Origin: a virus
Taxonomy: Duplodnaviria; Caudoviricetes
Strand: one strand, 5' to 3'
IMG/VR virus record: IMGVR_UViG_3300049024_000030
Coordinates: 1-59,508 of that record
Length of the DNA: 59,508 bases
The notes beneath the pieces were generated by a model. It searched no databases and was not told the origin of the DNA. It worked only from the letters and a program-made list of their open reading frames with translations. The stretch's first letter is position 1. The number at the start of each line of letters is the position of its first letter. Below, piece by piece: positions 4,575-52,746 of this stretch. The translations under genes were made by a program, and so were the position numbers.

Positions 4575-6616
4575 TCAACCCTCGCTTCCTTGAAGCGAAA
4601 CGACAGATCGTAGGCGCATTGGCCGCTGCCCTCGTGGTGAATTACCGAATCAAACCTTCCCGCCTTTCTGACGCCGCGGTTGGAGTCCACGAGAATAAAC
4701 ACCTTGCCGAATCCGTGCGCGTCGAAGAAGGCGTCAACGGTGTCGCATTCGGTTAATGTCCGCGCGGCGAAGCGAACCTCATAGGAATCGTACGGCGGCG
4801 CTTTTTCGCGAGTAACGAAACTTGTTCTGTCTTCGGATTCGCTTATCAGCGCGTTAAGATTTCTATCCCAGCTAATCGGCAGAATTGGGTTAGTGAGCGG
4901 GAATAGCTCGGCGATCAATATATCCCGCGTCGCTGTGAAAGTTCCGTTCGTCGCCTGAATCCGCACCTTCGCGCCGGGAGTATTCGGAAAGGTTATAATC
5001 CCCGTACTACCATTGATTCCGCTCGGGACTGATGTCCATGTTGGGCTTGTGATATTCGTATTGAAATCCACCTGCTCCAATGGCCCCGCGTACAAGATCG
5101 CGGGCGTGATCACTGCCGGAACATTGATCGTCGCGTCCATCGCCTGATTCCCCGTCGAGGACGCGCGGACGACCGTTGTCCCCGGCGCGCTCGGCGCTGT
5201 GAATTCATTCCCTGAAAACGATCCGCCACCGCTGACTACAGACCATGTGACCAGTCCCGGCGTCTGAGCGTCGTCGTAGTTGGCTTGGAATCGCGCCTTC
5301 GCGCTCGGCTGAATTGTCTGCGTGAGATCGCTTAGGATTTTCAGGGCTGGAATATTTATGATCGCTTCGGCCAGTTGAAGCCGGCCCGGATACTTGCCTA
5401 TAAAATCAAAACTGCATACGCCGTCAAAAATCCTCAGAGCCATTCCATTCAGCGTGCGGCCTTCGAGGTCTACTAGATTGGCTGGAATCTCCAGCAATAC
5501 CCATTGATTCGTCGCTGGTAAATTTCCAATCCGCCACCTGCTCGGCGTGCCGTCCGTGCCGTAAACGATCGAGTTCGCGCCCCAGTAAGCCCCGTGCGCG
5601 TTGCCGGTGGCATCCGTCGCGGTGAAGCCTAAAAGGATTTCAGTCGGCGGATTCGTCGCGTCAAGGAACACGCGGCATATGAGCACGTCGTCTTTATCGA
5701 TCTGCAGTGTGTCGGAGGCGCCAGAAATGACATAACCGTGGTCCCCCGCCGCAAGTGGAGATTTTAGCCGGGCCGAGCCGGAAAATGGCGTAGGGCTGCC
5801 AGTGCCCCAAACCCATGACCCGCCGCTTGTGCTTACGCTCGACCCCGCCGGCTTATCGTCTTCGATCCAGATATATACGCCAGGCTGAATCGTTGCTTTC
5901 AGACTGTATCTGCCTGGCACGGTTCCGCCGCTGTAGATTTTTTCGAGCGGAGTAGCTCCCGCGCCAAGCGACCCATGCTCAACGCTGAAAGCTACGACGT
6001 TGAACCCTAAGAAATCGGTCCCCAGCAGCCTCCAATCGCCCGATATCCTTGGCGGGGCAACGGTCGCGGGCGGGGATTGCACAAAGGGATCGGAGCCCGA
6101 GGCGCGAACGGCGTAGGAGCCTGGATAGAGAATTGCGGAAGCGAACGTCAGGCGTTCATGGCGTAAGACATCATCAATATAGGCCCGGAAATTTCCGTTC
6201 ATCTCGATGCGGATTTTCATCCCTGAGACCGGCGTAATCGGGAGGGTGGCTAGAGTCGAGCCTGCTTCGTCAACAATCAGAATACTGGTCAGTTGAAGCC
6301 GGACAATATACTGCCAGAACGTCCCCGCGGTGGCCTTCTGCATTATGCCTATGAAATCTATATTCGCGCCTGAAATTGGCAGGGATTGAGGCGTAAGCGT
6401 CCATTCCATCGAGCCTGCTCCCTGCGCCAGCCTGAAGGCGCCGCTGGCCTGTATCGTCCCGCCCGATTGATTGCCTGGAGTCCTAACTGAGCCGTCTGGC
6501 AGAATCAGCCCCGCGTTCATCCTCCAGTATAGCGGCGGATGCGAGGCACGCGCGGTGAATAGCTGCACGTCGCTGGGATAAAGGTCGATGATTGGTGGGA
6601 AAATATCGAATCCCAT
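4571..6616 (-). CDS. tail tip / receptor-binding protein with beta-sandwich and Ig-like domains and a C-terminal Dit(gpM)-like domain
   Basis: Beta-rich; VTWSVVSGGGS Ig-like motif; C-terminal EVRF...VDAFFDAHGFGKVF resembles distal tail proteins; position after the hub gene. Confidence 0.7.
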   Translation of the reverse strand: MGFDIFPPIIDLYPSDVQLFTARASHPPLYWRMNAGLILPDGSVRTPGNQSGGTIQASGAFRLAQGAGSMEWTLTPQSLPISGANIDFIGIMQKATAGTFWQYIVRLQLTSILIVDEAGSTLATLPITPVSGMKIRIEMNGNFRAYIDDVLRHERLTFASAILYPGSYAVRASGSDPFVQSPPATVAPPRISGDWRLLGTDFLGFNVVAFSVEHGSLGAGATPLEKIYSGGTVPGRYSLKATIQPGVYIWIEDDKPAGSSVSTSGGSWVWGTGSPTPFSGSARLKSPLAAGDHGYVISGASDTLQIDKDDVLICRVFLDATNPPTEILLGFTATDATGNAHGAYWGANSIVYGTDGTPSRWRIGNLPATNQWVLLEIPANLVDLEGRTLNGMALRIFDGVCSFDFIGKYPGRLQLAEAIINIPALKILSDLTQTIQPSAKARFQANYDDAQTPGLVTWSVVSGGGSFSGNEFTAPSAPGTTVVRASSTGNQAMDATINVPAVITPAILYAGPLEQVDFNTNITSPTWTSVPSGINGSTGIITFPNTPGAKVRIQATNGTFTATRDILIAELFPLTNPILPISWDRNLNALISESEDRTSFVTREKAPPYDSYEVRFAARTLTECDTVDAFFDAHGFGKVFILVDSNRGVRKAGRFDSVIHHEGSGQCAYDLSFRFKEARVD

Positions 6617-8622
6617 TACAGTGTCAGCGCCTCCTGTCGCGGCTTGTGCGCGGAATCGGAATACAACTCACCGGATATCGCTTGCAGCGTAAATTCGCAC
6701 TCGTCGGCTGAGTCTTCGCCGGGCCTAACGTGCGCTTCTCGCACCAGACACAATTGATACGTCCAGCCGAGCACCGGATGAGAGACCGTCACGAAATCCC
6801 ACGGCAGGACGTGAAGCGAGTCGGCCATACCGACGAGAGCCACTTTCGTTGGGTTATCGTCTTCCAGCCTCGCAATATATTCAGTCAATCGGCACGCCTG
6901 CGATTGCGTCATTCCGCCTAAAGCGTGCTCGCTGCGCACTTCCCCGACGCGGGAAATAGAATCCTCTCTTAACAGCGCCTGCGCTGTGTCGTCTCGCGGC
7001 TCGATTGAGGTAGGCTCGTGGAATTCGCCTTCAACGTCGCGGAAGTATCCGATTATTCGGTTCGGGCGTGCGTCAAGGCTTTCTGTTGAACGCTGCGGTT
7101 CGCCGCCCTTAGCGATATTGCCGGGGTGGAAATGTTGGACGGGGACTGGTGGCCATTTCGGCGGAACGAAGATTATCTGCTCTCCATCGTCCTGCCAGCC
7201 GGTCGCGGAGTTTCCGCACAGTTCGTCAAAAGCCTGCGCGAGCGTGGTTTTCCCGGCAAGGCCGCCATGGTATTCAAATCTCGGCACAAACACGTTCACG
7301 CCGTCGCCTTCGCGATCCCAGGGAATCTGGCCGTCGTTGTTATTGGCCCAATCAACGACGCTTGGCCAATAGAAGCGGCGCCGAAAACGATCCTGCGCAA
7401 TATCAAGGCGGCTTCTGAAACGTCTCTGGAAAAAGAACAGCGCCCTGTCCATTGCTTCCCATGCGGGATTGGCTGAGTAGCCGTATTGGTCTATTAGCTC
7501 TGAACCCGTCGCGTCGTATTTTGGCAGTCTTCTACATTCGGCCAACACCTTCACGGCGTCGGGTCGCGCAGCCTGCGTGGCGAGGTTTGAGACGATATCA
7601 TTTCTTAGATTGACCGTGACGCCCGCCGAGCCGTTATAGGCCAAGCCGGAAGGCCATGCGCCGGCGAAGTCTTTGTTTTGCACATGGTCTGTCGCGTTGT
7701 GCGCGATTGTGCCGGGCCGGAATTTATAGCCAGAATTGCCACTCGTCGTATTCTGCGCCACGAGGACCGGCCCCCAGGTCGCGGCGCCACCAAAGAGCGT
7801 GAAGGCCATGCCGTTAATCGTTGTCCCCACCAACCCGACTTGACTCGCGTCGACATCTAATCTCACCCATTGGCCGGTTGAGGGAATGGACGCGCTGATC
7901 TGCCGGCGGCTGTTCGTGCCGTTCGTCCCGAGGGCAATACTATTCGCGCCCCAGTAGGCCCGATGTTCGAAGTCTGCATCAATCGCAAATTGCAGCATTA
8001 TCTCTGTCGGCGTGTTTATAGGATCGATATAGATCCAGCAGCAAATAAAATCGCCTGACGCGATTGGAAGACCTTGGGTTGCAAAGGAGAAAAAGTGCTG
8101 ATGTTGTCCAGTCCTATTAGGCGATTGGTGAGAATATTTGCCGAGGAACGGGATAGGGTCTTTCGTTACCCAGTTCCAGCCGTCCGTATCAGGATTCGCA
8201 AAAGCGCCCGCCGGCAATCGGTCGCGAAAATATTCAGTGAGAGTGAAACGGTTTATCAATTCCTGCCCCGCGTACCAGACCTTTACCGCGCGCTCCCATT
8301 CACCGCGCTGGCCCAATCCGCCCCAGCCCTCGCCTAATAAGCCCGTGAATGTGTGCTCCGGGGTGATGGGATCATATTTATTTGACACCAGCTTTAAGCT
8401 GAATAAATTCCTGCCGAAATAAATCCCCAGCGGCACGCCTTCGGCCACTTCAAACTTGGCGGCGCGGTCGAGTTGTTCCAATGTAAACCCGTTCGCCACC
8501 GACAATGCGGCGTCTGTCGGAGAGATTATCTTCTTCGGCAATGCCCCAATAGGATCGAGGTTGATCTGAAGATTGCCCCCGCCAGAAAAACCGTCATCAA
8601 GCTGTATGTCGTCAAGTCTCAT
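6616..8622 (-). CDS. tail hub / central tail (gpJ-like) protein with an inserted beta-sandwich domain
   Basis: YSANPAWEAMD and LHVLPWDFVTVSHPVLGW motifs typical of gpJ/putative phage tail proteins. Confidence 0.8.
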   Translation of the reverse strand: MRLDDIQLDDGFSGGGNLQINLDPIGALPKKIISPTDAALSVANGFTLEQLDRAAKFEVAEGVPLGIYFGRNLFSLKLVSNKYDPITPEHTFTGLLGEGWGGLGQRGEWERAVKVWYAGQELINRFTLTEYFRDRLPAGAFANPDTDGWNWVTKDPIPFLGKYSHQSPNRTGQHQHFFSFATQGLPIASGDFICCWIYIDPINTPTEIMLQFAIDADFEHRAYWGANSIALGTNGTNSRRQISASIPSTGQWVRLDVDASQVGLVGTTINGMAFTLFGGAATWGPVLVAQNTTSGNSGYKFRPGTIAHNATDHVQNKDFAGAWPSGLAYNGSAGVTVNLRNDIVSNLATQAARPDAVKVLAECRRLPKYDATGSELIDQYGYSANPAWEAMDRALFFFQRRFRSRLDIAQDRFRRRFYWPSVVDWANNNDGQIPWDREGDGVNVFVPRFEYHGGLAGKTTLAQAFDELCGNSATGWQDDGEQIIFVPPKWPPVPVQHFHPGNIAKGGEPQRSTESLDARPNRIIGYFRDVEGEFHEPTSIEPRDDTAQALLREDSISRVGEVRSEHALGGMTQSQACRLTEYIARLEDDNPTKVALVGMADSLHVLPWDFVTVSHPVLGWTYQLCLVREAHVRPGEDSADECEFTLQAISGELYSDSAHKPRQEALTL

Positions 8623-9257: not shown

Positions 9258-12200
9258 TTAAACCGCCCTCCCGTCGCCGCGCGCGTCCTGCACGGCGTTG
9301 ACGATGATTTTCTTCCCCGTTCGGCCATTCGTGGCGGATGCAAGTATCTGCTGCGCGTCGTTTTGAGTGACGCCGACCCGCACGACGAGATTGATAGCGG
9401 CAGGGGCGGACGATGACGCCGTGCTTGAGCCGGCGTAAATCCCGCCGCTATCGAACACGCCACTCGGCTTGTAGCCAGGCACGCCGACGCGGTTGAATAT
9501 GTCCGGACCTGCCAATGCGCGGATTGACGCCTGGTGTGTAGGCGTCAAAACCATTTCGTCGCGGTGCAATATCGCGGGACCACCGCGAGTCAGACCGCCA
9601 CTGTCAAACTGCGGGACTAATCTCGAATCAATCGCCGAAAACCTTGCCGCGTCGCGTCGCTGTTGGATTTGTTTGGCTATGGCAGGCTCAACCAGATCGT
9701 TGTAAACCTTCTGCAGATCGCGCGCCTGATTCGTCAATCGCGACTCGCGAACGCTGGCGGTTTTCAATCCCGAAATCTGCTGCTTGAACGTCCCTAAAAT
9801 CTGACTGTCGAAGATTGACCTGGCCTGACTGTAGTCAATCGAACCGCTCGAGACGCCGAGCGCGAGTTGTTCGATGGATTGGATAGCTTGGGTTAAGAAC
9901 TGGCCAGAGGCTTCCTCGTCTTTTCGTCTCTGAGCCGCTTTACCCGCGAATATCGCGCCAACCAATAACGGCGCGCCTATCAACGCAATCGGCCCTAATG
10001 CCGCCAATGCGGCCGGCCCGAGCGCCCCGAGCCCGCCTCCCGCCGCCGAGAATACTGACGCCCCGAAGGATAAGCCGAGCCCCACGGCCCCGCCGCCGAC
10101 AGCGCCGAGAATGTTTCCGAATGTGGATTGTCCGCCGAGGCCGGCGCCGAGACCTGCGCCCAATAGCGGCGCCGCGGAAGCCAATCCGCCGAATAGGCCG
10201 CCAAGGGAGAAGCCGCTGCGCGCAACCGTGCCGACGGTTCCGGCAGTTCCACCACTTCCGCCACCGCTCACAGCGCTGATGAAATTGCCGAGCGCCGATT
10301 GCTGCTGCGCCTGTTGAGTGACGGAAGCCGGAAAGGTGGACGGCGTTCGGAAAAGATCGCCGAAGATGCCGCCGATGCCACCAGATTGGCCACCGCCGCC
10401 GCCGAACAATCCAACCAATGGCGCGAGCGCCTGACGGGCGACGTTTTGTAATGAGCGCCCGAGTAGATCGTTGAAGAACCCCAGCACGGCGGATTTCAGC
10501 CCGTTCAACAGGTCGCGGGTGTTGAGTAATGCTTGAGAAACGTTCTGGCCGAATCTTTCAAAAGCGTCGCCGACGCTGATCGTCGCGGCATTGAAGCCGC
10601 GCATAAAGCGCTCGGTGTCGCTGATAGCGGTCCCTAACTGCGTCATCAGATTTACTTCGTCGCGCAGGTTCTGGATATCGTCTTTATCAATAAATTTCGC
10701 ATTAGGACCGCCCAGATTCGCATTGATCGCCGAGGCCCGGCCCAACGCGGCTTGCTGGCGAAGCGCATCGGCCTGCTCCGGAGTGAGAGCGCCCCTGTTG
10801 AACAGCTCGTCTATATTCCGCAACCGAAGATTGTAGGATCTGCTCGAATCCCTGTTCGCGTCGTTAAATTCTCGCCGCCCTCCGCTGATAAGGCTTGAAA
10901 ATCCTCTCCCAATCGCTGAACTGGTAGCGTCCCCGAGTTTCTGAAGAGAATCGGCGTATCTCTCACGCGCCTTTATTTCTACCTTATAGCTTTTAATCAG
11001 TTCATCGGTCGCGGTATCCAGATCGCGTAATCGCGTCTCTACATTGTCCTGCAATGCGGATATATTGATCCTCGCAATGGCGCGCTCAGCCTGGTCTCTC
11101 GCCGATGCACGGCGTGAAGCGGTAAGACCTCCCCCACTTGAAGCATCGCTTAATCTTTTAGCCCGCGCGTCCCCGACGTTGACACCGGGCGAGCCGGGTA
11201 ATCCCGGCAACAGTCCCAATGCCATTCTCGCCGCTGGATCGCCGACTCCGTACAGGTTGTAGGCTGACGCGCCGTTTAACGGTACGCGGCTTGTCGGCGG
11301 GACGCTGGGCAGCGCATTCGGATCGACGCCGCGAATGATTCCGTCGATGTTGCGCAGTTGGCGCTGAAGTTGGTCGATGATGGCCGTGACCGGATTCAGA
11401 AAATCAGAAATGCGGCCCAGGAAACCGATCAGTCCGGTTTTACTTTCGAGTCCGGTGATCAGGGTTACAAAGCGCTCTGTTACGTCCACTAAAACCAGCA
11501 TCCGGCTCGCAGAGCGGTCTATCTCGTCGCCCAAACTGGCGAGAACGGCGGCGATCTTCGGCCCGTCCTTCTCAAGTAGTTGGACCAACTTTTCCATTTG
11601 CGGCAGGATCGTTTTGATCAGCGCATCGCCGATTGGCGCGAGCGCAACCGTGATCCTGTCCTTCATCTTCTCGAACTGCCCCGCAAGCGTTTCCTGCGCG
11701 TTCTTGAGCGCCGAGTTCGTCTCCGCCGCCTTGACGAGCTCTTCGGCCAATCTCTCGACTGTGTTGACGCCCAGATTCTTCGCCGCTTTTCTGATCGCCT
11801 CGGCGTTCGTCGGATTGTCGACGTTGAAGATTTGCGCGATTAGCTTGCCCGCAATCGGCGATTGGCCAACGAGTTCTTTCAAATCGGCCCGCTCGAAGTT
11901 CTGAGAGATCAATTGCGTCAGGTTGTTGACGAATTGCTTAGGGTCGCCGAGCGGCGAAATCGCATTGAGGCGGCCCACGACAGGGAGAAGGCGATTGATT
12001 GTTTGCTGGGTGACGTTGAAAACGCGCAACTGGGTATCGAGCGTCGCCGCGAGTGACGTTGTTAGTCCCGGCGTCTGCTGCGCGAGTTGGAATAGTTCGC
12101 GAAATCGCGCCGTCGCGGCCTGCGCGCTGCCTGTGAAAGCACGAAGCGCCGCGACCTGGCGATCAATCGCGACGGCGGCCTGAATCGCGTCGGAAGCGAT

Positions 12201-12437
12201 CTGTTTGAACACGCGCAGTCCACCAATCGCCGCGAGCGCGGTGCTCAATGCCGCGACTTCCGAACGCGCGCGTCGAGTCCCGCTCTCGACGCCAAGAGAA
12301 ATCGCGTCGCCAACCTTCTTGCCCGCGACTTGCGCCCCCTGCGCGGCGTCGTTGACGGCCTTCACCAGATCGTCCTTCAGTTTCTTCGACGCTTCGCTGT
12401 TGTCGAGTTTTATCTTGATTACGATTTCCTGCGCCAT
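9258..12437 (-). CDS. tape measure protein
   Basis: 1059 aa, Ala/Gly-rich and helical; follows the chaperones; C-terminal FDSGG...AILHRDEMVLT motif. Confidence 0.92.
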   Translation of the reverse strand: MAQEIVIKIKLDNSEASKKLKDDLVKAVNDAAQGAQVAGKKVGDAISLGVESGTRRARSEVAALSTALAAIGGLRVFKQIASDAIQAAVAIDRQVAALRAFTGSAQAATARFRELFQLAQQTPGLTTSLAATLDTQLRVFNVTQQTINRLLPVVGRLNAISPLGDPKQFVNNLTQLISQNFERADLKELVGQSPIAGKLIAQIFNVDNPTNAEAIRKAAKNLGVNTVERLAEELVKAAETNSALKNAQETLAGQFEKMKDRITVALAPIGDALIKTILPQMEKLVQLLEKDGPKIAAVLASLGDEIDRSASRMLVLVDVTERFVTLITGLESKTGLIGFLGRISDFLNPVTAIIDQLQRQLRNIDGIIRGVDPNALPSVPPTSRVPLNGASAYNLYGVGDPAARMALGLLPGLPGSPGVNVGDARAKRLSDASSGGGLTASRRASARDQAERAIARINISALQDNVETRLRDLDTATDELIKSYKVEIKARERYADSLQKLGDATSSAIGRGFSSLISGGRREFNDANRDSSRSYNLRLRNIDELFNRGALTPEQADALRQQAALGRASAINANLGGPNAKFIDKDDIQNLRDEVNLMTQLGTAISDTERFMRGFNAATISVGDAFERFGQNVSQALLNTRDLLNGLKSAVLGFFNDLLGRSLQNVARQALAPLVGLFGGGGGQSGGIGGIFGDLFRTPSTFPASVTQQAQQQSALGNFISAVSGGGSGGTAGTVGTVARSGFSLGGLFGGLASAAPLLGAGLGAGLGGQSTFGNILGAVGGGAVGLGLSFGASVFSAAGGGLGALGPAALAALGPIALIGAPLLVGAIFAGKAAQRRKDEEASGQFLTQAIQSIEQLALGVSSGSIDYSQARSIFDSQILGTFKQQISGLKTASVRESRLTNQARDLQKVYNDLVEPAIAKQIQQRRDAARFSAIDSRLVPQFDSGGLTRGGPAILHRDEMVLTPTHQASIRALAGPDIFNRVGVPGYKPSGVFDSGGIYAGSSTASSSAPAAINLVVRVGVTQNDAQQILASATNGRTGKKIIVNAVQDARGDGRAV

Positions 12438-44060: not shown

Positions 44061-44480
44061 CTAAAATGGCACGTCGTCGTCCAGTTCCTGCCGGCTGCTC
44101 AGCGCTTCCCGCCGCGCTTGCCTGTCTTCCGAGTCCGCCGCGCGTCGTGGCGCGTCGTTGTCGCCGCTTCTGCCCAGGAACTGAATTTCGCGCGCGTTGA
44201 CCTCGACGCTGGCCCGGTTCTGGCCTTCTCTGTCGGTGTAGGTTTCCAGTCGTATGCGGCCTTCGATATAGACTTGCGAACCTTTATGCAGATACTCATT
44301 GCAGAGTTCGCCTTGCCGTCCCCACGCCGAGATACGAAACCACGTCGTCACTTCTTCGCTGCCGATCTTCTCAGTGGCCGCGACTGAGAAGTTGCAGACG
44401 GCGTTGCCGTTCGGCGTGTATTTAAGTTCGGGATCGCGGCCCAGATAGCCGATCAGCGCTACTTTCGCGTAGGAAGCCAT
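44061..44480 (-). CDS. ssb: single-stranded DNA-binding protein
   Basis: LIGYLGRDPELKYTPNG, KGSQVYIEGR, C-terminal DDDVPF. Confidence 0.97.
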   Translation of the reverse strand: MASYAKVALIGYLGRDPELKYTPNGNAVCNFSVAATEKIGSEEVTTWFRISAWGRQGELCNEYLHKGSQVYIEGRIRLETYTDREGQNRASVEVNAREIQFLGRSGDNDAPRRAADSEDRQARREALSSRQELDDDVPF

Positions 44481-45493
44481 TACTTCTTGCCCCCCTTCTG
44501 CTTGAGTTCTTCAAACCACTTCGTCAGCGCGTTCGCGGCCTTTGCGGCTTGCGCGTCGTCGAGTTCTTCGACGGCATAGATACCGCCGCACAGCGCGGCA
44601 ATCTTCGCGTTAATGGCGTCGTAGGTTTGTCCGGCTTCTTTCAGCGCTTCGGTAAGATCGATCACCTTGCCGTGATCAGGCCCGAGTGGCTTGGCTTCCA
44701 CCACTTCGCCTTCGGGTTCCGGCGCGGGTTCGGCTTTGGCCGCGAGCCTGGCGCGCATTCTCTCGAGCAACTGGCGCTTGTAGGCAGACGGCTTTCCGGT
44801 AACTTGCTTGCGTTCATATTCAAGCCATTCCGCTTCAGTCTTGCCGGCGGCGAAGAATGTCTCTTTGATTTCAGCGTCAATGCCGTCGTCTTCCGGCGCC
44901 ACGTCCGCAATCATGCCGTTTGACGCCTGCGCCATCTCTTCCTGCGTGTAGATACCGGCTAAGTCGCCGGGGAACGCCTTGCGCAGACTGAGCGCTTCGG
45001 CGCATTTGGCGAGCTGGTTCGCGGCCATCTTCTTCCACATCGCGTTAGGCTGGCCGTCCTTGCGCGTCTGGACGTATTCTTTGTAGAGCGCGACGGCCCA
45101 GAACGGCTCGCGGCAGCCGGCTTTGAGCGTGCCGACTTTGGCGGCGGCCGGCGGATCGCTGCTGAGCCATACGTCTTTCCATTCGCCATCGGCGCCGCAC
45201 CAGAACGGCCCGAGTTGGCCTTCGTACTTGCCGGTGCGCTCAGCCATCAGCCGATAGCCGTCAATACCCGTCTGCGGCTCCATGACTTCCTTCTGCAATT
45301 GGCTGTCGTAGCGCTTCACCAGGTGGATCTGGCGACTGAAGATATCCAGCCCCTTGCGCTGCGCGACTTCGACGAACAGCGCGAGTTCATTGTTCGATGC
45401 GCCTTTCGCGTAAACGTCCTTGATAAGTTGAACCTGTTCGGGGTTGTAAACGATTGCCCCCGGCGATTCCTGCTTTACCATTGCTGTGCTCAT
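44480..45493 (-). CDS. bet: Red-beta/RecT single-strand annealing protein
   Basis: GLDIFSRQIHLV, QTGIDGYRLMAERTG, WKKMAANQLAKCAEALSLRKAFP. Confidence 0.93.
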   Translation of the reverse strand: MSTAMVKQESPGAIVYNPEQVQLIKDVYAKGASNNELALFVEVAQRKGLDIFSRQIHLVKRYDSQLQKEVMEPQTGIDGYRLMAERTGKYEGQLGPFWCGADGEWKDVWLSSDPPAAAKVGTLKAGCREPFWAVALYKEYVQTRKDGQPNAMWKKMAANQLAKCAEALSLRKAFPGDLAGIYTQEEMAQASNGMIADVAPEDDGIDAEIKETFFAAGKTEAEWLEYERKQVTGKPSAYKRQLLERMRARLAAKAEPAPEPEGEVVEAKPLGPDHGKVIDLTEALKEAGQTYDAINAKIAALCGGIYAVEELDDAQAAKAANALTKWFEELKQKGGKK

Positions 45494-46316: not shown

Positions 46317-46730
46317 TCAGCCATCGTTGTTGTCTCCCATATCAGTCGCCGCGACGATCTCGCGGGCCAACTGATTCGCTTTTTTTACCGCTTCCCATTT
46401 GCGCATATGCGAGTTCTTGCCTTGAATGGATTGGCCCTTCGCCAATTCGTAATCGACTCTCTGCTGAACCTGCTCGGCGCGCGCCGGATCAATCGCATTC
46501 AGCGCGTCCATAAATTGCAGATAGTTGTGAACCGGACTTCGGCGGCCGTGCGGATCGCCCGGCTCGTCGTCGTAAGCGGCTGGATCTACGCGCCACTTGC
46601 GAACCGTTTGCTCACTGCATCCGTACAACAGCGCCACCCTGCGCAGCGTGTCGGTCTCGCGGTGAGGTATTACTTTTGCAATTAGTTCGAAAATCTCCAT
46701 CGCTTCGATTTCGTGAGGTGTACTACTCAT
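46317..46730 (-). CDS. CII-like HTH regulator
   Basis: VALLYGCSEQTVRKWR HTH and GRRSPV motif; early-operon position. Confidence 0.6.
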   Translation of the reverse strand: MSSTPHEIEAMEIFELIAKVIPHRETDTLRRVALLYGCSEQTVRKWRVDPAAYDDEPGDPHGRRSPVHNYLQFMDALNAIDPARAEQVQQRVDYELAKGQSIQGKNSHMRKWEAVKKANQLAREIVAATDMGDNNDG

Positions 46731-47084
46731 TATTCTTCCTGTGCTTGTTGGGTTGGCATTGGCACTTCATCGTGGGGTTGAAGCGCGGTAAGCTCTGGCC
46801 ATGATTCCAACGTGTCGCAGGGGTGGTCGATCATTGCGTTTCGCGCCGTATCTGATTTGGCGCAAACGGTATTGGCAAATTCGCTATGTCGGCTGCCGAT
46901 CGTAAAAGTTGCGATCATAAAAGTGCGGTTCTTTGAAAATTCAGCATCAATCGAATAGCGGTCGTTGGCGCGGCCGCTATTTGCGTATAAGGGCAGCCGG
47001 GGCGTCACGGACCTGCATAAACCGACCGCCCCGGCGTATTGGCGGCGTGGTGAATTGCGTGCAGTCAAATTCCACACCCGCCAA

Positions 47085-47319
47085 GGTTTTTACGAACTGG
47101 CTTTTCCGGACTTGGTGAATTGCGACTCTAAGCCGAGAGGAACAAACCACGCGGTCCCCTAACCAGCTCGTAACTGTTTTGGCCGTTGGCGGGTTCTCCC
47201 GCGCACGCCGCTTGAAGGGATTCATCCGGTATAGAGAGTCTGCCCTTGCGGGTAGCGTTCGATCGCACGGAACAGGTTCCCAACGGCGGGAGTTGCTAAA
47301 AAGCGTCCACGGCCAAACT
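47085..47319 (-). ncRNA. putative structured RNA (two multibranch domains) following the tRNA-like element
   Basis: Closing stems TTTGGCCGT/ACGGCCAAA and TTACGAGCTGGTT/AGCCAGTTCGTAA; inner CTCCCGC/GCGGGAG and a CCC-GCAA-GGG GNRA hairpin. Confidence 0.55.
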
Positions 47320-47501
47320 TGGTCAGACTGGAAGGAATCGAACCTTCTCCTTCGGCGCCCCCGCCGATGTGCTTCAGTGGTTGGTACCCCCGCTTCGGTC
47401 GTTTCGCGAATACCGTTAGATGGGTTTACATCGCGTATCCACGGAACCACCATCGCCACACGCAACGCTGCGCTTAATGCGAGCCGTTACACCACAGTCC
47501 G
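47320..47501 (-). ncRNA. tRNA-like RNA (182 nt) with a ~110-nt D-loop insertion and degenerate anticodon loop
   Basis: Acceptor CGGACTG/CAGTCTG + A-CCA; D stem GTGT/GCAC; TCGGC-GGGGGC-GCCGA arm; AGGA variable region; T arm GAAGG-TTCGATT-CCTTC. Confidence 0.75.
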
Positions 47502-47538
47502 AAATTGTTCAAAGATCAAATCAGCGCCGAAGAGAGTT

Positions 47539-47748
47539 TCACTCTTCAACCTGGTTTCGCTTATGGAACCTGGTTCGTAGCGAGCGCCGATGCCGTTTGA
47601 GCTTGAGGCGTTTCTCAAGCTCACCGGGGTGGCATTGAATAATGTGCATTGCCAGCCCTATGTCTCCGAAAAATCTATTGCGGCGCTTTGGACATCCGCG
47701 TACCGGGCATTGCCAGCCTTCCCGATTTGTTTGCGCCGCACATGGCAT
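47539..47748 (-). CDS. small C2H2 zinc-finger-like basic protein
   Basis: CPVRGC...F.....L..HIIQCH; start codon uncertain. Confidence 0.55.
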   Translation of the reverse strand: MPCAAQTNREGWQCPVRGCPKRRNRFFGDIGLAMHIIQCHPGELEKRLKLKRHRRSLRTRFHKRNQVEE

Positions 47749-47846
47749 TGATTTCTTCCCTACTTCTCAGGCGCGGTGGGACGATTTCACCTTGTCTCGT
47801 CCCATTGTCCCGGTAACATTCAGGCCAGGCACCGCGCTGATTCGTG

Positions 47847-48074
47847 CTAGTAGCGATCCAACTCGAACTGCGAAGTGTACTCGCGGCGCCAATCGCTTTC
47901 GACAGGGCTGTTCACGCCCCTGGATTCGACAGTCCAGTTGTCGCGCTTCATCGCGGCGATCAGCGACTCGGCCTCTTCGCGGGTGGTATAGCCAAATACT
48001 GACCACTTGGTGAGAGTCGGCAGCGTGGCCCGAACGCGGAATGGTGCGGTATGCGATATTTTGACTTCCGCCAT
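47847..48074 (-). CDS. hypothetical protein, paralog of 2988-3416
   Basis: RBS GGAGGTGGAG; clear similarity to the N-terminus of 2988-3416. Confidence 0.8.
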   Translation of the reverse strand: MAEVKISHTAPFRVRATLPTLTKWSVFGYTTREEAESLIAAMKRDNWTVESRGVNSPVESDWRREYTSQFELDRY

Positions 48075-48964: not shown

Positions 48965-49336
48965 TCAGGCCGCACGGAGCGCTGCGGTTTTCGCGCTGCC
49001 CCGCTCGCGGCTATTCAGATAGTTTTCAATCGCGTCAGCGCGATACCGAACGTCGCCGCCTTCAAACAGAATGAATGGCAATCTCGCTGGACGTTCGCTT
49101 CGCCAGTTGCGCATCGTGCGCAGCGAGACGCGCAGCAGTTCGGCGGCTTCTTTTTCCGTCAACAGTTCCTTCGGTTGTTCGAGGCGCTTAAGGTTTTCTT
49201 CGAGAAATCGGACGAGGCTTTCCAAGCGCTCAATTCGCGCAGTGGCTCTGTCCAACTTTTCCTGCGCCGCAGCGATCTCTTCCTGCGCCATTACGGCGCG
49301 GCCATAGGCGGCGGCTGCGGTGTCGTTGGATTTCAT
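48965..49336 (-). CDS. excisionase-like HTH protein
   Basis: LLTEKEAAELLRVSLRTMRNWR...VRYRADAIENYL. Confidence 0.88.
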   Translation of the reverse strand: MKSNDTAAAAYGRAVMAQEEIAAAQEKLDRATARIERLESLVRFLEENLKRLEQPKELLTEKEAAELLRVSLRTMRNWRSERPARLPFILFEGGDVRYRADAIENYLNSRERGSAKTAALRAA

Positions 49337-49638
49337 GACGCCACCTCCACGTTGAGAAGTTCGTGGCGCGCGGTTATGACGGCCTTCCAATAGGCGCGGC
49401 GGTAATCGCGCTGAATCTCGTTAGCGCGGCGCTCAATGGCCATGTGAACCAGAGCGCGCGCGTGCGCGCCGGCGTTGTCGGAAGAAATGGGATTGAGAAT
49501 GGCCTCGATATGGAAATCGCACTTTGACGACCATTGTTCATCGGTCATCACCTTTATCGGCGCCGCCTTGCGCGTCCGTTTCGGCGCGGCTTGGCTTTCC
49601 TGGCGGCGGCGGATTGTGGCGGGTGAGTCGTAGATCAT
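49333..49638 (-). CDS. hypothetical early protein
   Basis: First gene after a strong promoter; ATGA overlap. Confidence 0.7.
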   Translation of the reverse strand: MIYDSPATIRRRQESQAAPKRTRKAAPIKVMTDEQWSSKCDFHIEAILNPISSDNAGAHARALVHMAIERRANEIQRDYRRAYWKAVITARHELLNVEVAS

Positions 49639-49711: not shown

Positions 49712-49948
49712 TTACGCGGCGCGCAAAAATTTTTCGGCGCTGATAATGTCTTTCAGGCCAACACCATAGAACAGGCAGAGCCTTATCAGGAGCGGCGCTG
49801 ACGGTTTGCGAGAGCCATTTTCGATTGCCCAAAGATGCTGCCGTTCAATGCCGAACAATTTAGCGACCTCGGACGGAGACCTGTCCCCACGTGCGGCTTT
49901 CAGCTTTGCGGGATCAATGTCCACATTGCGGATTGTTTCGATGTCCAT
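49712..49948 (-). CDS. Cro-like XRE regulator (leaderless)
   Basis: SEVAKLFGIERQHLWAIENGSRKPS; TAGACA-N17-TACATT-N6-ATG; divergent from the repressor. Confidence 0.85.
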   Translation of the reverse strand: MDIETIRNVDIDPAKLKAARGDRSPSEVAKLFGIERQHLWAIENGSRKPSAPLLIRLCLFYGVGLKDIISAEKFLRAA

Positions 49949-50047
49949 GGGCGAAATGTAACATGGCAGGTTGCAGATGTCTACCAACAGGTGACAAAAA
50001 ATCATTCTCGCAGATTGCAAAAGACTCGTAAACTTTCAGTTGACGCT

Positions 50048-50548
50048 ATGAAGGAAACTTTCGGACAAAAATTACAACGATGGCGCGAGGCGGCCCATGT
50101 GTCGCAAGCTGAATTAGCGCGCCGGATGGATGTTAGCCGTAATTACATCAGCAATCTTGAGAGGGACTTTTCGCCAACTGCCAAGGGTGGCAAGCCTCAG
50201 CCGAGTGTGGAGACATGCGATAAGATCGCCCGCGCACTGGGGGTTAAGATTGCCGAAGTCAGGCTAGCTGCAGGGTATGCACCGCCCGCAAAATCAGAGG
50301 AAGAGAGTGCAGAAATGAAACAAGAATCCGAACAGGCAGTCGACCGCGCGGCCGAAGGCGCCCGCACTATGGAAATGATTGAAAATTGGGCGATCATGAC
50401 ACCTGAAGAGCAGACGGCGGCGCTTGCGTTTCTCAAGTTTCTCAAAGCGGAAAATCCTGAAGCTCTCAGGATTTTAGGCCCCAGGTTCAAAGTAAAAGAC
50501 TCTTCGGACATCACTCAGTCCGAAGTTGAGGAAACACCAGATCGCTGA
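50048..50548 (+). CDS. CI-like XRE repressor
   Basis: FGQKLQRWRE..VSQAELARRMDVSRNYISNLE...PSVETCDKIARALGV; no S24 peptidase domain. Confidence 0.88.
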   Translation: MKETFGQKLQRWREAAHVSQAELARRMDVSRNYISNLERDFSPTAKGGKPQPSVETCDKIARALGVKIAEVRLAAGYAPPAKSEEESAEMKQESEQAVDRAAEGARTMEMIENWAIMTPEEQTAALAFLKFLKAENPEALRILGPRFKVKDSSDITQSEVEETPDR

Positions 50549-51514: not shown

Positions 51515-51579
51515 CATCCGGCGCGTTGTTGTCCTGGGGGAGTACCGCGCCGGATCGATGTTTTTCACAAAGAGAAATT

Positions 51580-52746
51580 ATGCCGCGACGATACAAAGGC
51601 TATTCCGCCTATCCGTACAAAGAAAAAGCGAGTGGGAAATGGTATGGCCGGCTGGAACTGAAAAAGCCGGACGGAAAGATGAAAGTCTACTCGCGTCAGG
51701 CGAGGAACAAAACCCACGCCAGGCAGATCGCGGACGAACTGGAAGCCAGGTATATAACCGGCGGCACGGAAGCGCTCGACGCCGAGAATATGACGGTGGG
51801 TGAGTTGGCGGGAAGATATAGAAAGGCGAAAGTCGTCGACGCGGCATATGACGGCGGAATCAAGGTGTCTGGAATGATCGCGAAAGCATCAGCCGAAGAC
51901 GAGATAAAGGAACTGCTGGAGTACTGGAACCTGGCGCCGATTCAGAAGATCACCCATGCCGCGATTGAAGAGTATAAATCGCATATACTGAAAAAGCCGA
52001 CGTTTTGGCGCTGGCGCAAAGGCGATAAGATTGTTGAAAAGCCACGCGGGACGCCGCGCAAAATGTCGAGCGTCAATCATTTATTGCGCAGGCTTCGCGC
52101 TATGTTGAACTTCGCGATCCGCAATGGCTGGCTCGTCAAAAACCCGTTTAACGCCGGCGAGCCGTTGATCAGCGACGCCGCCGAGGTTCCGCGCAACCGC
52201 GCCGAACGCGTCGAAGAACTGGACAAGCTACTCGCCGCTTGCGTTGGCAGCCGCGCCTATCTGCGGCCTGTGATCCTGATTATGGCCGATTCGGCGTTGC
52301 GACTTACCGAAGCGAAGCGGCTCACGCGCGCCAATCTGGATTTGGATCGTAAAGTCGCCTATATCGAAGCGCGGAATACGAAGAAGAACAAACAACTGCG
52401 CATTATTCCGTTATCCGATCGGTTGATTGAAGAGCTGAAGGTGTGGGCTGAGAAGGCGAAGACGGACGACGTTCCGATCCTGCAGCAAGGCGACTATAAG
52501 AAGGCCTGGAAGGCGCTGAAGAAGGAAGCCAAAATATCCGACGATCTGCAGTTGAGAGACCTTCGCGGATGGGGAACGTCCAAGATCGCGCGCGCGCTTG
52601 CCGCCAACAATTTGCCGTGGCAGTGGGGCATGAAGGCGACGGGGCATACGCAAACCAAAACCTACGAGCGGTATTTGAAGACGGATGAGGAAATCGCGAG
52701 ACAAACGGGCGAGGCGCTGAAGAAAATTGAAAAAAAAGTTGCGTGA
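51580..52746 (+). CDS. int: tyrosine integrase
   Basis: N-terminal arm-binding domain, SSVNHLLRRLRAMLNFA, SALRLTE (R), TK (K), LRDLR, TGH, YERY; adjacent attP. Confidence 0.92.
   Translation: MPRRYKGYSAYPYKEKASGKWYGRLELKKPDGKMKVYSRQARNKTHARQIADELEARYITGGTEALDAENMTVGELAGRYRKAKVVDAAYDGGIKVSGMIAKASAEDEIKELLEYWNLAPIQKITHAAIEEYKSHILKKPTFWRWRKGDKIVEKPRGTPRKMSSVNHLLRRLRAMLNFAIRNGWLVKNPFNAGEPLISDAAEVPRNRAERVEELDKLLAACVGSRAYLRPVILIMADSALRLTEAKRLTRANLDLDRKVAYIEARNTKKNKQLRIIPLSDRLIEELKVWAEKAKTDDVPILQQGDYKKAWKALKKEAKISDDLQLRDLRGWGTSKIARALAANNLPWQWGMKATGHTQTKTYERYLKTDEEIARQTGEALKKIEKKVA

What the first reader, a model, noticed from the sequence alone, without database searches (positions are those of the whole stretch)
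47320..47501. tRNA-like RNA with a ~110-nt D-loop insertion and no usable anticodon
Seen on the minus strand: 7-bp acceptor CGGACTG/CAGTCTG, U8, D stem GTGT/GCAC, a TCGGC/GCCGA arm whose loop is GGGGGC (6 nt, no U33), a perfect T arm GAAGG-TTCGATT-CCTTC, and encoded ACCA. The D-loop contains about 110 extra nt that are themselves paired (GTGGTT/AACCAC, CGCGA/TCGCG). Known: bacterial tRNA introns sit in the anticodon loop, and tmRNA replaces the anticodon arm, so this matches neither. Inference: a tRNA-mimic scaffold, such as an RNase P/Z-released regulatory RNA, a decoy for anticodon nucleases, or a Y-RNA-like molecule.
Basis: partly seen in the sequence, partly recalled or inferred. Interest (0 to 1): 0.8.

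Follow-up and report, generated by a model that had tools for sequence, protein, structure and literature searches.

The report
tRNA-shaped phage RNA without anticodon
A soil phage carries an RNA gene built like a transfer RNA, but with a 110-base folded domain added and a closed hairpin where the anticodon should be; a diverged relative keeps the same folds, so it is probably a working non-decoding RNA of a kind not yet catalogued.

Summary
At 47320-47501 (minus strand) there is a 7-bp acceptor stem, U8, a canonical T arm and an encoded ACCA. A 110-nt insert lies between G19 and A21. ARAGORN and Rfam call nothing, but ARAGORN calls a tRNA at default settings once the insert is removed in silico. 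A fitting 5' half is rare: 4 of 118,980 genome 18-mers.

A soil-metagenome contig holds a homologue of the whole element, about 80% identical. Its listed differences are compensatory. The insert helix GUGGUU/AACCAC keeps all pairs. The "anticodon" arm is a 6-bp stem with a tetraloop in both copies, with 4 of 6 pairs changed on both sides. Chance would do this in 2 of 200,000 trials. So it is a selected structured RNA, not a decayed tRNA, and it cannot decode.

It sits in an untranslated gap of the early operon, after a boxA-like motif and before a separately conserved 145-nt block. The closest relatives lack it.

My best reading is an RNase P/RNase E-released stable RNA in which the tRNA frame carries the insert as the working part. 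Function and expression are untested, and only one full homologue is known. The scan had not noted this element on other DNA.

The parts
47320..47501 (-). tRNA-shaped RNA, 182 nt, from C1 to the encoded CCA
   Evidence: Sequence. ARAGORN default call after in-silico removal of the insert. Control of 118,980 18-mers. Homologue covering 47313-47504 in run X2.
47495..47501 (-). Acceptor stem, 5' strand (CGGACUG); the base before it (position -1) is U
47320..47330 (-). Acceptor stem 3' strand (CAGUCUG), discriminator A and CCA
   Evidence: A 33-nt stretch including this part is 30 of 33 identical in a contig of run X3.
47331..47347 (-). T arm GAAGG-UUCGAUU-CCUUC, with G53-C61 and the U54/A58 positions present
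47352..47367 (-). Hairpin at the place of the anticodon arm: 6 bp plus tetraloop (UCGGCG-GGGG-CGCCGA)
   Evidence: In the X2 homologue 9 of 16 nt differ and it still folds as 6 bp plus tetraloop, with 4 of 6 pairs changed on both sides.
47374..47483 (-). 110-nt expansion domain (RNA 19-128)
   Evidence: Aligned throughout in the X2 homologue with only six 1-nt gaps, so it is an integral, conserved part. The six 1-nt indels rule out a conserved reading frame on either strand.
47376..47382 (-). 3' strand of helix Pb (RNA 120-126); it pairs with 47445-47451 (RNA 51-57)
   Evidence: G-C>C-G, U-A>C-G and G.U>G-C in the homologue; all 7 pairs are kept.
47445..47451 (-). 5' strand of helix Pb (RNA 51-57)
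47407..47423 (-). Longest stretch with no change between the two copies (17 nt, RNA 79-95), unpaired in the supported model
   Evidence: No listed difference. The two MFE helices that would pair it each lose a pair in the homologue.
47505..47518 (-). boxA-like motif UGAUCUUUGAACAA, 3 nt upstream of C1
   Evidence: Exact GATCTTTGAA at 47508-47517. The same motif stands in front of the variable domain in L058 and L002. The published gamma-proteobacterial consensus is GYTCTTTAANA (PMC5725501, passages). The motif is not enriched genome-wide (19 matches against 14 expected).
47313..47319 (-). Trailer AGUUUGG directly after the CCA
   Evidence: Shared by the X2 homologue, which diverges from 47313 downstream. 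The same CCA+AGTTTGG follows at least 119 tRNA T arms in viral contigs, and 90 of 100 non-redundant ones are canonical tRNAs.
47175..47321 (-). Separately conserved ~145-nt non-coding block downstream (context, not part of the tRNA-like RNA)
   Evidence: 89-90% identical in L002/L057 and L058, whose flanks are unrelated. The closing stem has one compensatory change.

Best explanation
The element is a conserved, non-decoding, tRNA-shaped RNA gene of a temperate soil phage.

Proposed mechanism:
1. It is transcribed as part of the leftward early operon, through an untranslated stretch of about 420 nt that a boxA-type antitermination signal may protect from Rho (inferred).
2. The acceptor/T-arm minihelix with U at -1 and an encoded ACCA makes it a substrate for RNase P at the 5' end. 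RNase E cuts in the AGUUU trailer and exonucleases trim back to CCA at the 3' end (inferred from established tRNA processing).
3. This releases a stable RNA of about 182 nt.
4. The tRNA frame serves as a processing and stability chassis.
5. The 110-nt expansion domain is the working part. It is closed by helix Pb and shows a 17-nt invariant unpaired tract, which would bind a protein or another nucleic acid (inferred).
6. It cannot read codons, because the anticodon arm is a closed 6-bp tetraloop hairpin in both known copies (shown).

Shown: the tRNA-like frame, conservation of the whole element including the insert, compensatory base changes, the non-coding nature, the operon context, and absence from the closest relatives.

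Inferred: transcription, processing, stability and the trans function.
For: 1. Frame.
- ARAGORN at default calls a tRNA after in-silico removal of the insert, in 26 of 80 variants.
- Only 4 of 118,980 genome 18-mers can replace the 5' half.
- U8, A14, G18G19, A21, G53-C61 and U54/A58 are all present.

2. Selection on structure.
- The 249-nt contig of run X2 covers 47313-47504 with 32 substitutions and 6 one-nt gaps.
- Pb keeps 7 of 7 pairs, with 2 double changes and 1 single change.
- The hairpin 135-150 keeps 6 bp plus a tetraloop, with 4 double changes.
- A100-U116 becomes G-C, and U61.G68 becomes U-A.
- With 13 random substitutions in these 26 paired positions, all 13 pairs survive in 2 of 200,000 trials.
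- Competing MFE helices lose pairs in the homologue.

3. Strand. 5 of the 43 model pairs are G.U, which would be C.A on the plus strand.

4. Non-coding. Six 1-nt indels fall within 57 nt.

5. Divergence. The central 121 nt differ at 30 positions, the 71 nt of the two ends at 8, so the frame is the more constrained part.

6. Context.
- The element lies in a 460-nt gap between ORFs 47539-47748 and 46730-47077, in an operon whose neighbours all run on the minus strand.
- A boxA-like motif lies 3 nt upstream and is conserved in L058 and L002.

5' and 3' processing rules: RNase E cuts 1-3 nt after an encoded CCA (PMC2190699, abstract seen). RNase P processes phage regulatory RNAs (PMC4919922, passage).
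Against: - Only one full homologue is known, seen indirectly as a difference list from one low-depth (6.2) contig.
- Its differences in the acceptor, the D-stem 5' strand and the T-stem 3' strand (8 substitutions) were not listed, so the tRNA frame itself has no covariation test.
- No RNA run holds the region, so there is no evidence on expression, ends or stability.
- The folding energy is ordinary (z = -1.2).
- The element is absent from the closest relatives: L002's whole 68-kb genome, L181/L182, which share the upstream ORF, and L058. It is therefore dispensable.
- No complementarity of 14 nt or more to the rest of the phage genome was found; the best matches are two 13-mers at E 0.33.
- No sigma-70-like promoter or terminator flanks it.
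- The central junction topology is unresolved.
Confidence: 0.5

Rival explanations
1. It is mainly a cis-acting processing signal ('tRNA punctuation'). The tRNA shape is there to have RNase P and RNase E cut the early transcript at this point. That would uncouple the upstream genes from the downstream conserved leader block and genes, and the released RNA itself would have no job.
For: - It lies exactly between an ORF and the conserved 145-nt block.
- In L058 the same slot holds an unrelated domain closed by a 7-bp stem followed by UCCA.
- The CCA+AGUUUGG trailer is the usual phage tRNA trailer.
- RNase E cuts just after an encoded CCA (PMC2190699, abstract).
Against: - A cutting signal needs only the acceptor/T minihelix. 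It does not explain why a 110-nt insert with its own compensated helices and a 17-nt invariant tract is kept.
- In the X2 homologue the element is followed by unrelated sequence, so it travels without the block.
- L002 has no CCA at the slot end.
Confidence: 0.2
2. It is a sponge or decoy for a host factor that recognises the tRNA elbow, acceptor stem or CCA end. Candidates are a tRNA-directed defence toxin, a modification enzyme or the CCA-adding enzyme. The insert would serve as an extra handle.
For: - The frame (acceptor, T arm, CCA, elbow bases) is the best conserved part: 8 differences in 71 nt against 30 in 121 nt.
- The gene sits in the early region, where counter-defence genes usually lie.
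- Phage tRNAs that evade tRNA-targeting defences are described (PMC10264068, abstract seen).
Against: - The known tRNA-directed defences in that literature act on anticodon loops, and this RNA has none.
- No partner is identified.
- The closest relatives lack the element.
Confidence: 0.12
3. It is a decayed tRNA gene that picked up a random insertion: a pseudogene without function.
For: - ARAGORN and Rfam do not call it.
- The folding energy is ordinary.
- It is absent from the closest relatives.
Against: - Compensatory changes occur in two helices predicted before the homologue was seen (2 of 200,000 by chance).
- The insert is retained over about 20% divergence with only 1-nt indels.
Confidence: 0.08
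4. It is a decoding or aminoacylatable RNA after all. Either it is a class-II-like tRNA-Gln(CUG) with a 90-nt intron in the anticodon loop, or it is a small tmRNA-like molecule.
For: - ARAGORN -i at 95% of its threshold gives tRNA-Gln(ctg) with a 90-nt intron at 32/33.
- ARAGORN -m at 80% gives a permuted tmRNA with a 22-residue tag.
Against: - Neither is called at default settings.
- The 'anticodon' CUG (125-127) changes in the homologue, and the change compensates helix Pb.
- Position 33 would be A, and the anticodon stem would have 3 pairs and a mismatch.
- 90 nt is too short for a group I intron, and Rfam finds none.
- By my reading, 7 of the 9 substitutions in the putative tag frame change the amino acid.
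- G.U lies at 2:71, not 3:70.
Confidence: 0.03
5. It is an attP-type remnant: the part of a host tRNA gene that a temperate phage carries at its integration site.
For: The phage is temperate, with two tyrosine recombinases.
Against: - The element holds a full frame including the 5' half, not only a 3' part.
- The nearer integrase gene is 4 kb away (51526-52746).
- The 24-nt T-arm/acceptor string has 0 exact matches in one genome each of 185,579 species.
- The homologue shows selection on RNA pairing.
Confidence: 0.02

Closest known systems
tmRNA (tRNA-like domain)
   Same: A non-decoding RNA with a tRNA acceptor stem, T arm and encoded CCA, in which a large structured domain takes the place of the lower half of the tRNA. 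It is processed by RNase P (PMC4919922, passage).
   Different: - It has no conserved tag reading frame and no G3.U70.
- It is 182 nt rather than about 360.
- It has an extra tetraloop hairpin before the T arm.
- It is not called by ARAGORN at default settings or by Rfam.
YrlA / bacterial Y RNAs (Chen et al. 2014, PMC4201824; abstract and passages read)
   Same: Bacterial and phage non-coding RNAs with a domain that mimics the tRNA D arm, T arm and acceptor stem. M. smegmatis YrlA is cut by RNase P and receives CCA.
   Different: - YrlA genes lie next to a Ro60 gene, and the RNA ends form the Ro-binding stem.
- Here there is no TROVE gene, the ends lie in the acceptor stem with an encoded CCA, and Rfam gives no hit.
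C4 antisense RNA of phages P1/P7 (Hartmann et al. 1995). I saw only its reference entry and a one-line mention in PMC4919922; the details are recalled.
   Same: A regulatory RNA of a temperate phage, cut out of an operon transcript by RNase P.
   Different: - C4 is about 77 nt and acts by antisense pairing within its own operon (recalled).
- Here no complementarity above chance was found.
- The frame here is a full tRNA shape with a T loop.
Canonical bacterial/phage tRNA (Rfam RF00005)
   Same: Acceptor stem, U8, A14, G18G19, A21, T arm, 4-nt variable loop, discriminator and CCA, with the usual phage tRNA trailer.
   Different: - It carries a 110-nt insert.
- A 6-bp tetraloop hairpin replaces the 5-bp/7-nt anticodon arm.
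- RF00005 gives no hit at E<=10.
- No isotype signal: the best of 999 phage tRNAs matches 52 of 69 positions, and the top 40 spread over 16 labels (15 isotypes and one ambiguous call).
Engineered 'tRNA scaffold' for expressing RNAs in E. coli (Ponchon and Dardel; recalled, not looked up)
   Same: A cargo RNA embedded in a tRNA frame so that the cell processes and stabilises it like a tRNA. This is what I propose the element works like.
   Different: - The scaffold is man-made, with the cargo in the anticodon stem.
- Here the construct is natural, and the cargo enters at the D loop or the central junction.
Earlier scan finding e1-2167918: tRNA-like gene with an ~85-nt variable arm in Bacteroidota and their viruses
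   Same: A conserved tRNA-shaped gene with one loop grown into a folded domain.
   Different: - The expansion site differs (variable loop there).
- It keeps an anticodon loop, and some members are annotated as tRNA-Asp.
- It shares no sequence with this element.

Membership tests
Canonical tRNA (RF00005) | Cloverleaf detected by tRNA finders or the covariance model | tested here: not met
   ARAGORN finds 0 genes in the window. Rfam finds none at gathering score, nor at E<=10. A call comes only after in-silico deletion of the insert.
Canonical tRNA (RF00005) | 7-nt anticodon loop with U33 on a 5-bp stem | tested here: not met
   The arm is a 6-bp stem with a GGGG tetraloop; in the homologue it is 6 bp with GUGG.
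Canonical tRNA (RF00005) | 7-bp acceptor stem, 5-bp T stem with UUCRANY loop, NCCA end | tested here: met
tmRNA | Conserved tag reading frame with resume codon and stop | tested here: not met
   The frame appears only at ARAGORN -ps80. 7 of the 9 substitutions in it are non-synonymous (my reading).
tmRNA | G3.U70 alanine identity pair and detection by ARAGORN or Rfam | tested here: not met
   The G.U pair is at 2:71. There is no default call.
YrlA / Y RNA | Encoded next to a Ro60 (TROVE) gene | tested here: not met
   PF05731 has 0 matches in the complete phage genome, with 2 control genomes positive. A host-encoded Ro60 could not be tested.
YrlA / Y RNA | 5' and 3' ends form the Ro-binding stem, and the tRNA-like acceptor is a closed stem-loop | tested here: not met
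   Here the ends lie in the acceptor stem with an encoded CCA. The definition is taken from PMC4201824 passages.
RNase P-processed phage regulatory RNA (P1/P7 C4 type) | Cleavage of the precursor by RNase P | not testable with these tools
   Only the substrate features are seen: a 12-bp acceptor/T stack, U at -1 and ACCA.
RNase P-processed phage regulatory RNA (P1/P7 C4 type) | Antisense complementarity to sites in its own operon | tested here: not met
   blastn-short of 47080-47540 against the genome: the best non-self matches are two 13-mers at E 0.33, neither of them antisense nor within the early operon.
tRNA with group I intron | Intron in the anticodon loop with a group I core | tested here: not met
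   No Rfam intron hit. The insert is 90-110 nt. The putative anticodon is not conserved.
attP fragment of a host tRNA gene | Only the 3' part of a tRNA, identical to a host tRNA gene, next to the integrase | tested here: not met
   The full frame is present. There are 0 exact matches in genome contigs. The integrase gene is 4 kb away. The host is unknown, so this is not a complete test.
boxA antitermination signal (context) | Match to the consensus GYTCTTTAANA (PMC5725501) | tested here: inconclusive
   GATCTTTGAACA matches the TCTTT core but differs at 3 consensus positions (Y2, A8 and the final A). It is conserved at the same place in 3 phages. The host's own boxA is unknown.

The most novel reading that the evidence does not exclude
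A natural 'tRNA-chassis' RNA family in soil phages. A conserved acceptor/T-arm/CCA frame is used by the phage to have host tRNA enzymes cut out and stabilise exchangeable non-decoding modules. Examples are the 110-nt domain and tetraloop hairpin here, and a different hairpin on an almost identical frame in run X3. The released RNA would act in trans on a host or phage target during early infection or lysogeny. It would be a new class of phage non-coding RNA and the natural counterpart of engineered tRNA scaffolds.
Probability: 0.3. Interest if true: 0.8.

Novelty: new variant of a known kind. Interest (0 to 1): 0.6.

Why it matters
tRNA mimicry by non-coding RNAs is known from only a few bacterial cases: tmRNA, YrlA and a few phage RNAs cut by RNase P.

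This element adds a different design. It is a complete tRNA frame with an encoded CCA whose anticodon arm is sealed, and which carries a large conserved extra domain.

If it is released and stable, it would show that phages use the host tRNA maturation pathway as a general way to make regulatory RNAs from inside operons. It would also give a natural template for RNA-expression scaffolds.

Standard tRNA and Rfam tools miss it entirely, so similar genes may be overlooked in other phage genomes.

Tried and rejected
Searches for homologues, mostly blank:
- blastn of the element and of 15 kb around it against 50,697 phage records found no match. Plasmids gave no match.
- The exact T-arm/acceptor string had 0 matches in viral contigs and 0 in genome contigs.
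- The 17-nt invariant tract plus T loop had 0 matches in viral contigs.
- The frame pattern with a 16-18-nt arm had 0 matches.
- Covariance model R1 gave no match in L002's genome and nothing credible in 57 sources totalling 936 kb. The best non-self hit was window 12078-12222 at 18.9 bits, inside a tail gene, taken as spurious. It gave nothing in L181/L182.
- The second genome-contig scan returned 3 loci that share only the 20-mer.

Expression: the look-up of sequencing runs listed 10 soil DNA runs and no RNA holder. That says nothing about expression.

Rejected readings:
- Class-II tRNA with intron, tmRNA-like, attP remnant and Y RNA (see rivals and membership rows).
- 'CCAAGTTTGG as a special recombination junction'. 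It is a common phage tRNA trailer.
- 'GATCTTTKMA as a genome-wide promoter motif'. It has 19 matches against 14 expected.
- Ancestry by isotype gave no signal. One search was a faulty run of the same script, which parsed truncated sequences and crashed; I discarded it.

Not done:
- The host is unidentified.
- Paper supplements were closed, so the YrlA phage lists (supplementary tables of PMC4201824) could not be checked for this lineage.

Papers, and how much of each I saw:
- PMC4919922, PMC4201824, PMC5725501 and PMC11662646: passages only.
- PMC2190699 and PMC10264068: abstract starts only.
- Hartmann 1995, Ponchon and Dardel, the T4 stable RNAs, the RNase E motif, and the boxB-boxA order of rrn leaders: recalled, not read.
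- That no such RNA is in print rests on searches only.
Full report
**What the window is.** The window is a complete 59,508-bp viral genome with direct terminal repeats.
- Most genes from about 4.5 to 49.6 kb run on the minus strand.
- The region around the finding is the early region of a temperate phage. It holds an HTH_17/excisionase-like gene (48965-49390, minus), a divergent CI-like HTH gene (49835-50548, plus), a tyrosine integrase (51526-52746) and a RecT gene (44480-45493, minus). A ParB-methylase fusion lies downstream, and a second XerC-like recombinase lies at 289-1134.
- The terminase relatives, at about 40% identity, give no host.
- All sequencing runs that hold the region are labelled soil metagenomes.

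**The observation.**
- There is a 7-bp acceptor stem with one G.U, then U8.
- GUGU...GCAC can form a D stem, with A14, G18G19 and A21 in place.
- A hairpin sits at the place of the anticodon arm, followed by a 4-nt variable loop.
- A textbook T arm follows, then discriminator A and CCA.
- The stretch between G19 and A21 is 110 nt.
- ARAGORN finds no tRNA or tmRNA in the whole window. Rfam 15 finds nothing at gathering scores, nothing relevant at E<=10 in the local 551 nt, and RF00005 gives no match at E<=10.
- The frame is still tRNA-grade. When the insert is removed in a script, ARAGORN at default settings calls 'tRNA-???' with a 6-nt loop in 26 of 80 deletion variants.
- As a control I joined every 18-mer of the genome, on both strands, to the 3' part. 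4 of 118,980 gave a call, in 3 loci, one of them the real 5' half. A fitting 5' half within 300 nt upstream is therefore expected about once in 200 cases.
- The folding energy of the whole 182 nt is not unusual (z = -1.2).

**A homologue, and what it shows.** The collections gave no copy. The sequencing-run index listed ten soil DNA runs, and laying four of them on 46700-47900 gave three things.
- *Identical pieces.* 151-177-nt pieces with no differences cover the element in X2, X3, X4 and X5, so the sequence is not an assembly accident.
- *A diverged copy of the whole element.* One 249-nt contig of X2 (depth 6.2) aligns to 47313-47504 with 32 substitutions and six 1-nt gaps, about 80% identity. 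It runs into unrelated sequence 7 nt after the CCA.
- *A third frame.* A 151-nt contig of X3 matches 30 of 33 nt of the variable loop, T arm, acceptor 3' strand and ACCA. It is preceded by a different hairpin (5 bp with an 8-nt loop) at the place of the anticodon arm.

The tool lists differences only away from the ends of a piece, so I know 24 substitutions and 6 indels within 47347-47467. The other 8 substitutions lie in the 71 nt that hold the acceptor strands, the D-stem 5' strand and most of the T arm. I rebuilt the central part in a script and compared the helices.

| Helix (RNA positions) | Result in the homologue |
|---|---|
| Hairpin 135-150 | 9 of 16 nt differ; still 6 bp plus tetraloop; 4 of 6 pairs changed on both sides; loop GGGG>GUGG |
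| A100-U116 | becomes G-C |
| U61.G68, in local hairpin 59-62/67-70 | becomes U-A |
| Hairpin 29-33/38-42 | stem unchanged; loop changes to GAGA |
| MFE long-range helix 59-67/89-97 | one pair lost, one gapped |
| 70-73/80-83 | one pair lost |
| 12-17/35-40 | two pairs lost |

- Pb and the hairpin were proposed before the homologue was seen. If 13 substitutions are thrown at random into their 26 paired positions, all 13 pairs survive in 2 of 200,000 trials.
- Six 1-nt indels within 57 nt exclude a conserved reading frame on either strand.
- Five G.U pairs in the model favour the minus strand.
- The longest unchanged stretch, 17 nt (47407-47423), is unpaired in the supported model.

This is one homologue from one low-depth contig, and the frame's own stems could not be tested.

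**What it is not.**
- *Not a decoding tRNA.* Both copies have a sealed tetraloop hairpin.
- *Not a class-II tRNA with intron.* ARAGORN's sub-threshold alternative is tRNA-Gln(CUG) with a 90-nt intron at 32/33 and the hairpin as a long variable arm. It appears at 95% of threshold but not at default. It falls because its 'anticodon' bases are the ones that covary with Pb.
- *Not tmRNA-like.* That call appears only at 80% of threshold, and its tag frame takes mostly non-synonymous changes.
- *Not a YrlA-type Y RNA of the phage.* There is no TROVE and no RtcB gene, and the ends are placed differently from YrlA (PMC4201824, passages).
- *Not a plausible attP remnant.* It has a full frame, there is no host tRNA match, and the integrase is 4 kb away.
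- *No clear isotype ancestor.* Among 999 unique phage tRNAs the best match is 52 of 69, and the top 40 spread over 16 labels (15 isotypes and one ambiguous call).

**Topology.** Three arrangements of the central junction are possible.

| Model | Arrangement | Energy, kcal/mol |
|---|---|---|
| C | Local D arm 10-13/22-25, hairpin 29-42, and 43-45/131-133 closing the large domain, which would then replace the anticodon arm as in tmRNA | -60.2 |
| B | ARAGORN's intron reading | -55.3 |

The available differences do not separate A from C, because 130-133 is invariant and the 5' 34 nt of the homologue are unknown. I therefore confirm 'tRNA frame plus large extra domain', but not specifically 'D-loop insertion'.

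**Context.** The element fills part of a 460-nt gap without a credible ORF, between 47539-47748 (69 aa, zinc-finger-like) and 46730-47077.
- Three nt upstream lies UGAUCUUUGAACAA. The published gamma-proteobacterial consensus is GYTCTTTAANA (PMC5725501, passages). The motif shares the TCTTT core and differs at three consensus positions.
- Directly after the CCA begins a block of about 145 nt (47321-47175). It is 89-90% identical in two contigs whose flanks are otherwise unalignable: L002/L057 (a 68-kb viral genome whose RecT is 77% identical) and L058 (a 71-kb metagenome contig).
- Neither contig has the tRNA-like element. In each, the same boxA-like motif is followed by a different domain of about 115-130 nt with its own closing stem, and then the block. 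In L058 that stem is 7 bp and is followed by UCCA.
- Model R1 finds no copy anywhere in L002's genome.
- The upstream ORF has relatives at 81-83% identity, but their loci go straight on to other genes.
- So the tRNA-like RNA is an accessory module. Here it is placed between an antitermination-like signal and a conserved leader block, and in the X2 homologue it has a different downstream neighbour.
- The trailer AGUUUGG, which I first took for a recombination junction, is common. The pattern T loop-N-CCA-AGTTTGG hit at least 119 viral stretches, and 90 of 100 non-redundant ones are ordinary tRNAs, mostly in arrays. The module thus looks like a unit taken from a phage tRNA array, spacers included.

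**Mechanism.** What follows from established tRNA biology is that a 12-bp acceptor/T stack with U at -1 and an encoded ACCA is the substrate of bacterial RNase P. RNase E cuts 1-3 nt after an encoded CCA (PMC2190699, abstract), and phage regulatory RNAs are among the known RNase P substrates (PMC4919922, passage).
- I therefore propose that the early transcript is cut on both sides of the element, releasing a stable tRNA-shaped RNA of about 182 nt.
- The conserved insert, with its invariant unpaired tract, would be the functional part. The boxA-like signal would keep RNA polymerase going through the 420 nt of untranslated, structured RNA.
- None of these steps is shown. No RNA run holds the region, and I found no target by complementarity.
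- A purely cis 'punctuation' role and a decoy role for a factor that binds the tRNA elbow or end remain open. The first does not explain the conserved insert. The second has no identified partner.

**Novelty.** Searches of the open-access library found no description of a phage or bacterial tRNA-shaped RNA with a sealed anticodon arm and an expansion of about 110 nt. The nearest are tmRNA, YrlA and the RNase P-processed phage RNAs. The scan's own notes hold other expanded tRNA-like genes on other DNA, but none shares sequence with this one. I rate it a new variant of a known kind (tRNA mimics), with thin but positive evidence of selection.

Noticed in passing
window 47175-47321 (minus); L002 6504-6646; L058 6959-7106: A block of about 145 nt directly after the tRNA-like RNA is 89-90% identical in three phage contigs whose flanks do not align. 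Its closing stem UUUGGCCGU/ACGGCCAAA shows one compensatory change (U-A>C-G) and one C-G>U.G, and a GCAA loop becomes GAAA. Diverged pieces of it, with other flanks, also occur in runs X3 and X5. It looks like a conserved leader RNA or cis element of unknown role.
   Followed up: partly
window 47505-47518 (minus); L058 about 7230-7245 (minus); L002 about 6367-6382 and 6494-6503: A boxA-like motif GATCTTT(G/T)(A/C)A stands in front of the variable RNA domain in all three phages. In L002, and in an X3 contig, it also stands directly in front of the conserved block. It is not enriched genome-wide.
   Followed up: partly
window 47529-47547 (minus); L182 5201-5219: A hairpin spanning the stop codon of the 69-aa zinc-finger-like ORF keeps its loop (UGAAACU) while the stem changes GAAGAG/CUCUUC to GAGGGG/CCCCUC, that is two compensatory pairs. 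In the window it is followed by the boxA-like motif. This is the hairpin-then-boxA order that I recall from rrn leaders.
   Followed up: no
L058 7108-7235 (minus): In the slot that the tRNA-like RNA occupies in the window, L058 has an unrelated domain of about 130 nt. It is closed by a perfect 7-bp stem (AGGGAGC/GCUCCCU) followed by UCCA, so it could be another RNase P-type substrate. ARAGORN calls nothing there.
   Followed up: no
run X3, record 8: A contig with an almost identical T arm, acceptor 3' strand and ACCA (30 of 33) carries a different hairpin with an 8-nt loop at the anticodon-arm position. Only 15 nt after the CCA comes a second T-arm-like GUGG-UUCGAGU-CCAC. This may be an array of tRNA-like pieces.
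   Followed up: no
10 of 100 non-redundant cases were not called by ARAGORN, among them odd tRNA-like sequences in L141 and L179 and probable tmRNA 3' ends in L067, L076 and L078.
   Followed up: partly
window 47225 downstream (minus): An ATG inside the conserved block opens MNPF(K/E)RR... in the window and in L058 (31 codons there). In L002 the same frame stops after 7 codons, so the conservation is not protein-coding.
   Followed up: partly
window 12078-12222 (plus): Model R1 gives a weak match (18.9 bits, E 0.0056 with a rough calibration) inside the 1059-aa tail gene on the opposite strand. I take it as a G+C-rich chance hit.
   Followed up: no
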